Assembly (NCBI GenBank): GCA_951406725.2
Contig: OX597815.1
Span: 164,858,001-164,922,000 of the forward strand
Source of the DNA: Octopus vulgaris
Lineage: Eukaryota
Direction: 5' to 3'
DNA: 64,000 nt
Shown one piece after another: positions 13,269-16,200 of this stretch (its first letter is position 1; each line of letters starts with the position of its first letter). Made by a program: the position numbers.

Positions 13269-16200
13269 CTTTTTCTTCTTCCTAGAAACTCATTAATTCT
13301 GAGACTGCTATTTATGATGTTTTGCAAGAATTCTTTTTCCATTCAAACTCATTGGTGAGAACAGCAGCTTTAGAGGTAAGTCTGCTCTGTAATATTGTCA
13401 CAGAAGACAAATTTTCTTTACAAAGGCATTTGTGGATTCATTTATCTTGTAACAGTTTTGGAAATGAAATTTGAAATTTAGACTATTTGAATCATTTTTC
13501 AGAAAATAAAGCTTTTAATTATCACAAGTTTGGGTATTTTCACACTCAGTTTGAATATTTTTGCAGTAATTATGAAATTAGCTAAATATTAGCAGTATAG
13601 TTCATTATTCCTATCATCGATGTCATTTAATGTGCATTTTGTTTACATGTTTATATCCATCCTTTTTGGATTACATTTAATTTAATGCAACTTTTTGATA
13701 TAAAAAGGGTCCCCCTGTCTGTCCCAGGAGGTGGTGCCTTGGCATAACTGCAGTCCAAAGGAAACAAATATATGTGTGTGGAGGGTGTAAATGATCATAT
13801 CTCTCATTAAATCTCATGTTGATTTACATTTACAGTCATTTCTCTTAACTATTTACTTCTGTTTGATTGAGCAGTATAACCACTTTATCTAATCATGGTA
13901 TTTATGTATTTTTCTTTTATTTTCTTTTTTTTACCATTCCAATATTTAAGGTGTATGTCCGAAGAGCCTATACTGCTTATGAACTTGTGTGTTTGCGTCA
14001 TGATCAACTCTTGAATAGTCTCTGTGTTGTTGAATTCAAGTTTCTTTTGCCGACATCTCACCCCAACAGGTACGTTTTTCACAAATTCACAATAAATATC
14101 TTAATTACCTTCATGATAATATTAATGTCGCTGTAGCAGCTGAGCAGCAGGAATGGTATAGTGCCTGACTAAATGCCTTGCAATATTCTGCAATATCTGG
14201 GCAAAATGCTTAGCAAGCATTTCATCTGTCTTAATGTTCTGAGTTCAAATTCTGCTATGGTCAGCTTTGCTTTTCATCCTTTTGGGGGTCAATAAAGTAA
14301 GTACTGGTTGGGCACTGGGGTCAGTGTAAACAACTTACCCTCTCCCCTGTGCAAAAATTTGAGACCAATATTTTGTTACTTTTCCTTCACATCTTACTGG
14401 AGTTGAATTTTTCTTTTCATATTTCCAGATGGTTACTATAAGTGCCATTCACAATTGGCTATATTTTTCCACAAAATTTGTGGTTTTGGTTTGAAGATAG
14501 AAATATTATTTTTTATTATTATTATTATGATGGTTATTGTTGTTTCACTAAATTTTGGGAAGCTTGTATTTTTGGTTCCCAATGAGAAATGCTTCATTTA
14601 TATCATTAGCTAATGATGTTGAACACGTCATTTCCATTTCTCTTCCCAAATAGATGTGAAACATTTAGTTGTATAAAGAGATGTATATTTATTTATTTTT
14701 TTCATGCATTTAGAAAATGTTTGCTGCTACAAATATTGATTTTTCTATATGATTGTCAAATAAACTTAGCATTTAATTTGATTTAATTTAAGCTTCTCTT
14801 CACATTTTCTAATGTTATTTCTAGTCCTGTAGCTGCCAAGTGTCTATTATATGGAGTAATCCTCTGTCAGTCTGTCTTTAAATACTGTTTTGTGGATGTA
14901 TTCATTGTACGCTGCTGTTACTGTTGTCATCTTTCTGGTTCAGCTATAGGCTTCATCAGTTCTTTTTCTTTTACCTCTATTGAAGCAAGGCTACTGAATA
15001 TCTCAATATTGTTCCTGCATGTTTATTCCTTTAGTAGTAGTGTTACTACTATTTATTTTTGTTCATAAGTTCTTTGATTTCTCTTTAACAAACTTGATAC
15101 AAGCTGTCATTAGTCCTCTTTGCTAACTCATGTATCTCATATGTATCTCATATTAAATCTGTACTGCTGATAATAGTGGAACAAAGGAGATCTACATTCC
15201 AGGTCGCGCAAAAAGTGCTCTAGCCATTATCAGTATAACATAGACACAATATTTCTTATTATAATTTTATCTAATTTAGGATCATTATTTAATTCTCCTA
15301 TCATATTATTTTGTTTTAATATTATCATGTTTTGGTTGGTTAAAAAAAAAAAGAAAAGTCATTATGATGGAAATATTTAATGAAACTTCTAATATAAAAC
15401 AAAGCCCATTGCTTTTTTAGATGTCTTCGGTTCCCAGTTCCAAACTTACAACTCAAAATTAAAATACGAAGCCAATATATTTTCAACCATATTAACATTT
15501 TCATCATTAATTATGATTTATGTATGTATTTTATTTTATTTGTTTTCTTTTTTTGTTTGATCCTATTGACTTTCAGGTTGATTCATCCTGGGTAAGTGAT
15601 TTCCTCTGCCTCCCTCATCTATCCTATTGCTTTAGCTTTGATATATTTGAAAGAGCAGACCAGTGCATTTACTCACATGAAAGGCTGTCCTCAATGAAAC
15701 TATAAATTTCTTTGTTGTCTAGTTGTATATTGATACAAAAGGGAGAGAGATCTAAAGGAGATAAGGGTAAAAGGATAAGAAAAATTATTTTCACTTCATA
15801 CTTTTATACATTAATTGCTGTTGTGGAAGTCCTAAAGAAATGTTAGTCATATTAAGAAATCCAATAGGACAACAGTGACAGAAACAGTGGAATGCCAGAT
15901 TCGGTGTTTTGTTATGTCTCTTACATTCTTAGTTCAAATTCTACTGAAATCAACTTCACTTTCCATTCCTCTGTAGTTGATAAATTAAGTACCAGGGGTA
16001 TATTTAGATTAATTCAATAACTATACCTGTTTTTATTGTAAATTTTTGGTTGACAATTTGCGAAGCAGCATTGGGAGATGAAATTTTAAAAAAATGAATT
16101 AAAAGTGTAAGTTAATATGTCTTTCAGTAGAGATATTTTGTGGAAAAGTTTTACTTTAAGAATAATTCTGATACTGAAAGAGAGAGAGCGAGAGAGATGA

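What the first reader, a model, noticed from the sequence alone, without database searches (positions are those of the whole stretch)
15577..15591. 15-nt frame-preserving microexon candidate at the ACC central regulatory loop
Seen: strong pyrimidine tract, tttcag acceptor and a consensus gtaagt donor 15 nt apart. It is symmetric in the phase-2 intron after ...SHPNR and would insert about LIHPG. Known: mammalian ACC1 has a short (24 nt) alternative exon at this position just upstream of phospho-Ser1200, and the yeast Ser1157 loop is in this region. Inference: a conserved or convergent splicing hotspot.
Basis: partly seen in the sequence, partly recalled or inferred. Interest (0 to 1): 0.7.

Follow-up and report, generated by a model that had tools for sequence, protein, structure and literature searches.

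The report
Candidate 15-base microexon in acetyl-CoA carboxylase
A 15-base stretch with very good splice signals sits in the same intron of the acetyl-CoA carboxylase gene where vertebrates have a known 24-base optional exon, so it is a credible optional mini-exon, but no evidence that it is used could be obtained.

Summary
15577-15591 is flanked by a T-rich, AG-free tract ending ctttcag and by gtaagt. It is symmetric in the phase-2 intron 14070-24895 and would add LIHPG after ...SHPN-R without changing the R.

I scored it with a splice-site model trained on this gene's own 31 donors and 29 acceptors. Both sites beat the median real site. It is the only such pair 3-51 nt apart on the + strand of the 64 kb window, and the best of 326 in-frame open AG..GT candidates in the intron (19.1 against 12.3). 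Chance expectation for a frame-preserving pair this strong in this intron is about 0.003-0.014 (my scaling).

The vertebrate parallel holds. Of 118 vertebrate ACC1 clusters, 61 carry GNIPTLNR directly after SHPNR and 41 go straight to MSF. This is mouse Acc1 exon 28 (PMC11494077).

Use of the exon is untested. No transcript, isoform or sister-species sequence could be reached. The Ser that the vertebrate cassette modulates is absent here. My verdict is a plausible real cassette microexon (about 0.5) against a silent pseudo-exon (about 0.38). It would be a new member of a known kind.

The parts
13951..14069 (+). Upstream constitutive ACC exon (VYVRRAY...LPTSHPN plus AG), ending in a phase-2 donor (gtacgt at 14070).
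   Evidence: Pfam ACC_central E=1.8e-07. Aligns to PDB ACC1 residues 1152-1190. Native donor scores 10.6.
15472..15576 (+). AG-free zone of 104 nt with a T-rich tract (about 15527-15558), ending in the acceptor ctttcag. Possible branch points of the yTnAy type lie 17 to 82 nt upstream of the exon.
   Evidence: An AG-free zone this long is matched by 1 of 29 real acceptors and by 21 of 3727 AGs on the + strand. Acceptor scores 10.3. There is no TGC, UCUC or CTAAY motif in the 110 nt upstream.
15577..15591 (+). Candidate 15-nt cassette microexon, GTTGATTCATCCTGG. In the phase-2 context it gives R, LIHP and G.
   Evidence: Best of 326 in-frame open AG..GT candidates in the intron, combined score 19.1 against 12.3 for the next. 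Unique in the window by blastn.
15592..15597 (+). Consensus donor gtaagt. Its TAA is an in-frame stop if the donor is not used. It is followed by a pyrimidine-rich stretch (77% over 15599-15641).
   Evidence: (score 8.8).
24896..25030 (+). Downstream ACC exon encoding the rest of the regulatory loop (LMVMRFDGG...RMGIVAAFSSFAELR plus GA). Acceptor ttttccag, donor gtaagt at 25031.
   Evidence: The next exon was found at about 27510-27612 (YFDELML...), so the model is coherent. This exon has no Pfam or PDB match on its own.

Best explanation
15577-15591 is a genuine alternative cassette microexon of an animal acetyl-CoA carboxylase gene.

When it is included, upstream exon 13951-14069 is spliced to 15577, and 15591 is spliced to 24896. 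The protein then gains five residues (LIHPG) directly after the conserved ...SHPN-R, at the N-terminal end of the regulatory loop of the central domain. When it is skipped, 14069 joins 24896 directly.

- **Shown:** the anatomy, the strength and rarity of the signals, frame preservation, and the fact that the homologous vertebrate intron holds an optional 24-nt exon.
- **Inferred:** that the exon is used. Also inferred is its effect: that it changes the length or conformation of the loop start. This differs from the vertebrate case, where the cassette changes the context of a neighbouring phospho-serine that is absent here.
For: 1. Both splice sites beat the median of this gene's own sites.
2. 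It is the only such pair 3-51 nt apart on the + strand of the window.
3. It is by far the best of 326 in-frame open candidates in the intron.
4. From the densities (at most about 18 decoy donors and 29 decoy acceptors this strong per 64 kb), I expect about 0.014 frame-preserving pairs of 3-30 nt in this 10.8-kb intron. Markov simulations scaled to the intron give 0.003-0.012.
5. The AG-free zone upstream is 104 nt, matched by 1 of 29 real acceptors and 0.56% of all AGs. Long AG-free zones and long pyrimidine tracts are reported for microexons (PMC8797185, passage).
6. The frame is symmetric, there is no stop, and Arg is kept.
7. The sequence is not a repeat copy within the window.
8. The same intron position in vertebrates carries the optional GNIPTLNR cassette (61 with, 41 without, of 118). 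Other variants also occur at that junction (16 'other', for example SHPNR followed by SASVSD).
9. Three unnamed transcript-like representatives (P0001, P0044, P0075) carry five extra residues, IPHN[RK], right after SHPNR. In the alignment the window's downstream exon starts 4 residues later than they do.
Against: - There is no expression evidence and no cross-species comparison of any kind. Every route to sequences from relatives failed.
- Pseudo-exons with good signals are common in long introns. The empirical null rests on only 64 kb per strand.
- The splice model was trained on about 30 sites per type, which I picked partly with a consensus heuristic.
- The proximal 20 nt before the AG are only 70% pyrimidine.
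- No UGC or UCUC motif lies near the acceptor and no GCAUG lies downstream.
- LIHPG is not similar to GNIPTLNR and only loosely similar to IPHN[RK].
- The Ser that the vertebrate cassette acts on is absent.
- The loop is already of normal length without the insert: 29 residues, against 24-45 in the nine others measured.
Confidence: 0.5

Rival explanations
1. It is a silent pseudo-exon. A T-rich tract with an AG happens to lie 15 nt before a GTAAGT, and the spliceosome ignores it or uses it only as noise.
For: No evidence of use could be obtained. At looser thresholds (about the 25th percentile of real sites) 3 pairs on the + strand and 2 on the minus strand occur within 3-30 nt. T-rich tracts and GTAAGT are frequent in this AT-rich DNA: 26 GTAAGT on the + strand and 16 on the minus strand. 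No known microexon enhancer motif is present.
Against: At the candidate's own scores no other pair exists on either strand. The expected number in this intron is about 0.01. It also lies in the one intron that holds an optional microexon in vertebrates.
Confidence: 0.38
2. It is a recursive-splicing intermediate. The acceptor is used to remove the first 1.5 kb of the intron. The junction of the upstream exon end with the GT that opens the 15-mer then acts as a new donor, so the 15 nt never reach the mRNA.
For: The 15-mer starts with GT directly after the AG. The rebuilt donor scores 4.3, inside the range of real donors, whose lowest is 3.1. The intron is long at 10.8 kb.
Against: The rebuilt donor (4.3) is much weaker than the exon's own gtaagt (8.8), so the exon's donor should win. 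The site lies only 1.5 kb into the intron. From my recall, not a call, recursive sites are described mainly for much longer introns.
Confidence: 0.05
3. The gene model is incomplete. The 15-mer is used only together with further exons in the same intron, for example 16626-16676, giving a longer loop than assumed.
For: 16626-16676 is the second-best in-frame open candidate (acceptor 7.2, donor 5.1). By eye its peptide contains SLPSVHS, which recalls the conserved loop motif SLPRVVS / LPHVPS / IPRVAS of other ACCs. The window's loop exon lacks that motif.
Against: A loop profile scores that ORF at only 3.2 bits, E=26. Using it without the 15-mer would change the conserved Arg to Ser. The loop would become about twice the usual length.
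Confidence: 0.05

Closest known systems
Vertebrate ACACA (ACC1) exon 28: 24-nt, 8-residue optional cassette upstream of Ser1200/1201
   Same: It sits at the same gene position, the phase-2 intron right after ...SHPN-R. Both are symmetric, frame-preserving microexons that keep the Arg. Both lie at the N-terminal end of the central-domain regulatory loop (PMC4833862).
   Different: It is 15 nt, not 24. The peptide is LIHPG, not GNIPTLNR. The serine two residues after the junction (R-M-S-F) is replaced by R-L-M-V in this gene. The documented vertebrate effect on phosphorylation (PMC11494077, passage; the titles of Kong 1990 and Barber 2001 were seen only in its reference list) therefore cannot apply as such. 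Use of the vertebrate exon is proven; use of this one is not.
eMIC/SRRM-dependent neural microexons of bilaterians
   Same: Very short frame-preserving exon, long AG-free zone, long pyrimidine tract (features as listed in PMC8797185, passage).
   Different: There is no UGC near the acceptor, no UCUC repeats and no CUAAY branch site. Both splice sites are strong, whereas weak 3' sites are described for fly eMIC exons. The host gene is a metabolic enzyme.
Five-residue IPHN[RK] segment after SHPNR in unnamed invertebrate-like ACC representatives (P0001, P0044, P0075)
   Same: Same place, same length (5 residues), and the residues I, H and P are shared. In P0044 the following MWFTMDYGD lines up with the window's LMVMRFDGG.
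   Different: The residue order differs (IPHN[RK] against LIHPG). The exon structure and taxon of these records are unknown. The alignment lies in a variable loop and carries no statistical weight.

Membership tests
Alternative cassette microexon (30 nt or less) | Canonical AG acceptor and GT donor flanking a very short exon, with signals comparable to real sites | tested here: met
   Acceptor scores 10.3 (10 of 29 real as high). Donor scores 8.8 (13 of 31 real as high).
Alternative cassette microexon (30 nt or less) | Length a multiple of three and open in the host frame | tested here: met
   15 nt in a phase-2 intron; reads RLIHPG with no stop.
Alternative cassette microexon (30 nt or less) | Transcripts both with and without the exon | not testable with these tools
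   No transcript data are available. Protein searches found no relative closer than 74% identity.
Alternative cassette microexon (30 nt or less) | Conservation of the exon and its flanks in related species | not testable with these tools
Vertebrate ACC1 exon-28-type cassette | Lies in the intron directly after ...SHPN-R, phase 2 | tested here: met
Vertebrate ACC1 exon-28-type cassette | Encodes a GNIPTLN(R)-like peptide | tested here: not met
   LIHPG against GNIPTLNR.
Vertebrate ACC1 exon-28-type cassette | Sits directly N-terminal to the R-M-S phosphorylation site (Ser1200/1201) | tested here: not met
   The downstream exon starts L-M-V-M-R-F, so there is no Ser at that place.
eMIC/SRRM-type neural microexon | UGC motif close to the 3' splice site and a UCUC-rich tract | tested here: not met
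   No TGC, TCTC or CTCT in the 110 nt upstream.
eMIC/SRRM-type neural microexon | Long AG exclusion zone | tested here: met
   104 nt.
Recursive splice site / RS-exon | The rebuilt 5' splice site competes successfully with the short exon's own donor | tested here: not met
   Rebuilt donor 4.3 against own donor 8.8.
Acetyl-CoA carboxylase, central region (host gene) | Match to Pfam PF08326 and to solved ACC1 chains | tested here: met
   A tblastn of the ACC1-like P0053 maps residues 755-2054 along the + strand.

The most novel reading that the evidence does not exclude
The 15-mer descends from an optional microexon that already sat after ...SHPN-R in the bilaterian ancestor. The vertebrate GNIPTLN(R) cassette, the IPHN[RK] segment of arthropod-like ACCs and this LIHP(G) would then be three versions of one very old splice switch at the start of the regulatory loop of a core metabolic enzyme. 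For scale, a 2026 preprint confidently inferred only two bilaterian-ancestral tissue-specific exons, in APBB and MADD (10.64898/2026.09.05.749416, passage).
Probability: 0.12. Interest if true: 0.75.

Novelty: new member of a known kind. Interest (0 to 1): 0.45.

Why it matters
ACC catalyses the committed step of fatty-acid synthesis, and its central-domain loop is where phosphorylation tunes the enzyme (PMC4833862). In mammals the 8-residue cassette at this junction changes phosphorylation and activity, and it is mis-spliced in a disease model (PMC11494077).

An optional exon at the same junction in a distant invertebrate would show one of two things. Either the switch is far older than vertebrates, or this junction attracts microexons repeatedly. 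Since the serine next to it is missing here, it would also point to a phosphorylation-independent way of tuning the loop.

If it is a pseudo-exon, the finding is only a caution for gene annotation.

Tried and rejected
**Finding relatives' ACC proteins**
- searched single exons with lengths 'longer'. That mode searches only up to 2000 residues, so full-length ACCs were out of reach. The only hit was a 1270-aa Pycnogonum protein.
-, the representative search, returned 89 hits with best identity 74%. Most are short genomic ORFs that stop or diverge after SHPNR.
- One search used the ACC1-like P0053 with its exon region. It gave 900 candidates, of which the best 120 were listed, all vertebrate.
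-, the cluster look-up, was unavailable.

- The spliced (joined) protein model was never built, folded or searched. Exons were searched one by one.
- I did not scan genome contigs because it holds only bacteria and archaea.

**Other checks**
- Rfam on the whole window found nothing.
- The bacterial promoter/terminator scan is irrelevant to this gene.
- ORFs on both strands around the site are low-complexity only.
- A first crude filter requiring at least 75% pyrimidine in -23..-4 missed the candidate itself, so I replaced it with the trained model.
- timed out and was rerun.
- The loop-profile search for hidden loop exons found nothing significant. It did not detect even the real loop exon, so it has little power.

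**Literature**
- 'microexon' with 'cephalopod' gave 2 papers. 'microexons' with 'octopus' gave 1.
- In that octopus preprint the main text has no ACACA or acetyl-CoA. Its supplements are closed and might list octopus exons.

Full report
**1. What is there**

The + strand of the window carries an acetyl-CoA carboxylase gene. A tblastn with P0053, an unnamed ACC1-like representative of 2347 aa, maps its residues 755-2054 onto the strand from about 1560 to 62442. Single exons match Pfam ACC_central.

The exon 13951-14069 encodes VYVRRAY...LPTSHPN and ends with AG before gtacgt, which is a phase-2 donor. It aligns to residues 1152-1190 of the 2346-residue ACC1 chain of PDB 6g2i.

The next homologous exon is 24896-25030. 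It encodes the rest of the loop and the conserved RMGxxxAF. It is followed by an exon at about 27510-27612. The intron in question is therefore 14070-24895, 10.8 kb long. It is full of SINE-like repeats.

**2. The observation**

At 15577-15591 lies GTTGATTCATCCTGG, preceded by ctttcag and followed by gtaagt. The unspliced reading 15575-15592 gives RLIHPG. The intronic AG and the following G mimic the ends of the neighbouring exons, so this is also the peptide that inclusion would produce: the Arg after ...SHPN is kept, and LIHP plus Gly are added before the L-M-V-M... of the next exon. Reading past the donor meets TAA at once (ORF 15398..15595). The only nuance is that the pyrimidine tract is T-rich and strongest 20-50 nt upstream: 80% over -43..-4 and 70% over -23..-4.

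**3. Is it more than chance?**

I located 31 donors and 29 acceptors of this gene by homology, frame and a simple consensus heuristic. From them I built a position weight model.

- The candidate donor scores 8.8. In leave-one-out scoring, 13 of 31 real donors score as high.
- The candidate acceptor scores 10.3, and 10 of 29 real acceptors score as high.
- On the + strand, 32 of 3854 GT and 40 of 3738 AG reach these scores. On the minus strand 19 and 12 do.
- The candidate is the only acceptor-donor pair 3-51 nt apart on the + strand in which both sites reach the real-site medians. The minus strand has none at the candidate's own scores. At median thresholds it has 1 pair (up to 30 nt) or 3 (up to 51 nt).
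- Among 326 in-frame, open AG..GT candidates of 3-60 nt in this intron it ranks first, with 19.1 against 12.3 for the runner-up.
- Markov-chain sequences of order 1, 3 and 5 give 0.05, 0.09 and 0.165 equally strong pairs per 64 kb. For lengths that are multiples of three they give 0.015-0.07.
- Scaled to 10.8 kb this is 0.003-0.012. The product of the observed decoy densities gives about 0.014. Both are my own arithmetic.
- The AG-free zone before the acceptor is 104 nt. Only 1 of 29 real acceptors and 21 of 3727 AGs reach that length.
- The region is not a repeat copy within the window. The nearest repeat is a SINE piece at 15907-15995.

There are caveats. The model rests on few sites, which were chosen partly by consensus. 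The real-sequence null is only 64 kb per strand.

**4. The vertebrate parallel**

One search listed the best 120 of 900 candidates, all of them vertebrate. I examined 118, leaving out two unnamed rows. Of these, 61 have GNIPTLNR directly after SHPNR and then MSF, 41 go from SHPNR straight to MSF, and 16 show other or broken forms. Typical lengths are 2347 and 2339.

Many short genomic ORFs among the 89 representatives run from SHPNR into unrelated sequence. This shows that the intron position is widely shared.

PMC11494077 (passages read) describes mouse Acc1 exon 28. [quoted passage not shown] In sheep and goat mammary tissue, skipping goes with more phosphorylation and less activity. The paper cites Kong 1990 and Barber 2001, of which I saw only the titles in its reference list.

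[quoted passage not shown] Ser1216 aligns to yeast Ser1157. The paper notes that the N-terminal part of the loop contacts CDC2.

**5. What does not fit a simple homologue**

- LIHPG is unlike GNIPTLNR.
- The next exon starts L-M-V-M-R-F, so the R-M-S site of vertebrates is absent.
- In my alignment of the loops, the column of the widely conserved Ser (human Ser1216) holds Lys in the window. The loop is variable, so this alignment is weak.
- No UGC, UCUC or CUAAY lies upstream and no GCAUG lies downstream. The motif set described for eMIC-dependent microexons (PMC8797185, passage) is thus only half present: a long AG-free zone and a long tract.
- Three unnamed transcript-like representatives have IPHN[RK] right after SHPNR. 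In P0044 the following residues line up with the start of the window's downstream exon, leaving a gap of 4 residues where the 15-mer would fit. This is suggestive but has no statistical weight, and neither the taxa nor the exon structures of these records are known.

**6. Rivals**

- **Silent pseudo-exon.** This remains the main alternative because nothing shows use of the exon.
- **Recursive splice site.** This is conceivable because the 15-mer starts with GT. However, the rebuilt donor scores 4.3 against 8.8 for the exon's own donor.
- **A longer model that also uses 16626-16676.** This rests on a by-eye likeness (SLPSVHS). A loop profile does not support it: 3.2 bits, E=26. That profile is weak and did not detect even the real loop exon.

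**7. What stayed unchecked**

- No sequence from a related species and no transcript could be reached.
- The spliced protein was not assembled, folded or searched. Exons were searched singly.
- The source organism was not identified by any search. The best identity to any stored protein in the junction exon is 74%.
- Supplements of the preprint that analysed Octopus bimaculoides splicing are closed and may bear on the claim.

**8. Verdict**

- Genuine cassette microexon: about 0.5.
- Pseudo-exon: about 0.38.
- The remaining probability is shared by the recursive-site and longer-model readings.

If real, it is a new member of a known kind. It would resemble the ACC1 exon-28 cassette in position but differ in sequence and probably in mechanism. 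The boldest reading not excluded is an ancestral bilaterian microexon at this junction, with probability about 0.12.

Noticed in passing
window 16626-16676 (+): This is the second-best in-frame open AG..GT candidate in the same intron (51 nt; acceptor 7.2, donor 5.1). By eye its peptide contains SLPSVHS, which recalls the conserved phospho-loop motif of other ACCs. A loop profile gives only 3.2 bits, E=26.
   Followed up: partly
window 24896-25030 (+): The loop exon seems to lack the serine that aligns with human Ser1216 / yeast Ser1157. The aligned column has Lys, and P0044 and P0075 also lack it. The vertebrate R-M-S site is L-M-V here. The alignment lies in a variable loop and is uncertain.
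   Followed up: partly
window 47977-51327 (+), inside intron 47398-53397: An uninterrupted 1117-aa ORF with endonuclease and reverse-transcriptase domains and a weak PHD match below its cut-off. It is an apparently intact LINE-type retrotransposon in the sense orientation within the ACC gene.
   Followed up: partly
window 14197-14349, 15907-15995, 21159-21635, 23595-23806, 23945-24120 and elsewhere: Many copies of one SINE-like repeat (core ...TTCTGAGTTCAAATTC...TTTCATCC...) lie in the intron and elsewhere in the window. Rfam reports no tRNA or other family at its gathering scores.
   Followed up: no
proteins P0138, P0177, P0191, P0196 and others: Vertebrate ACC1 records show further variants at the same junction, for example SHPNR followed directly by SASVSDVLLD in turtles. 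The junction is therefore a multi-variant splice site in vertebrates, or a frequent annotation problem.
   Followed up: no
window 14056-14075 compared with 15582-15597: The end of the upstream exon (TCACCCCAACAG|GT) and the end of the 15-mer (TCATCCTGG|GT) share a TCAYCC core, encoding H-P in both. This may be a trace of a local duplication of the exon end, or chance. It is too short to test.
   Followed up: no
window 20033-20475: A 150-nt inverted repeat with 90% complementarity and a 143-nt spacer lies in the same intron. Smaller hairpin-like repeats lie at 22108-22376.
   Followed up: no
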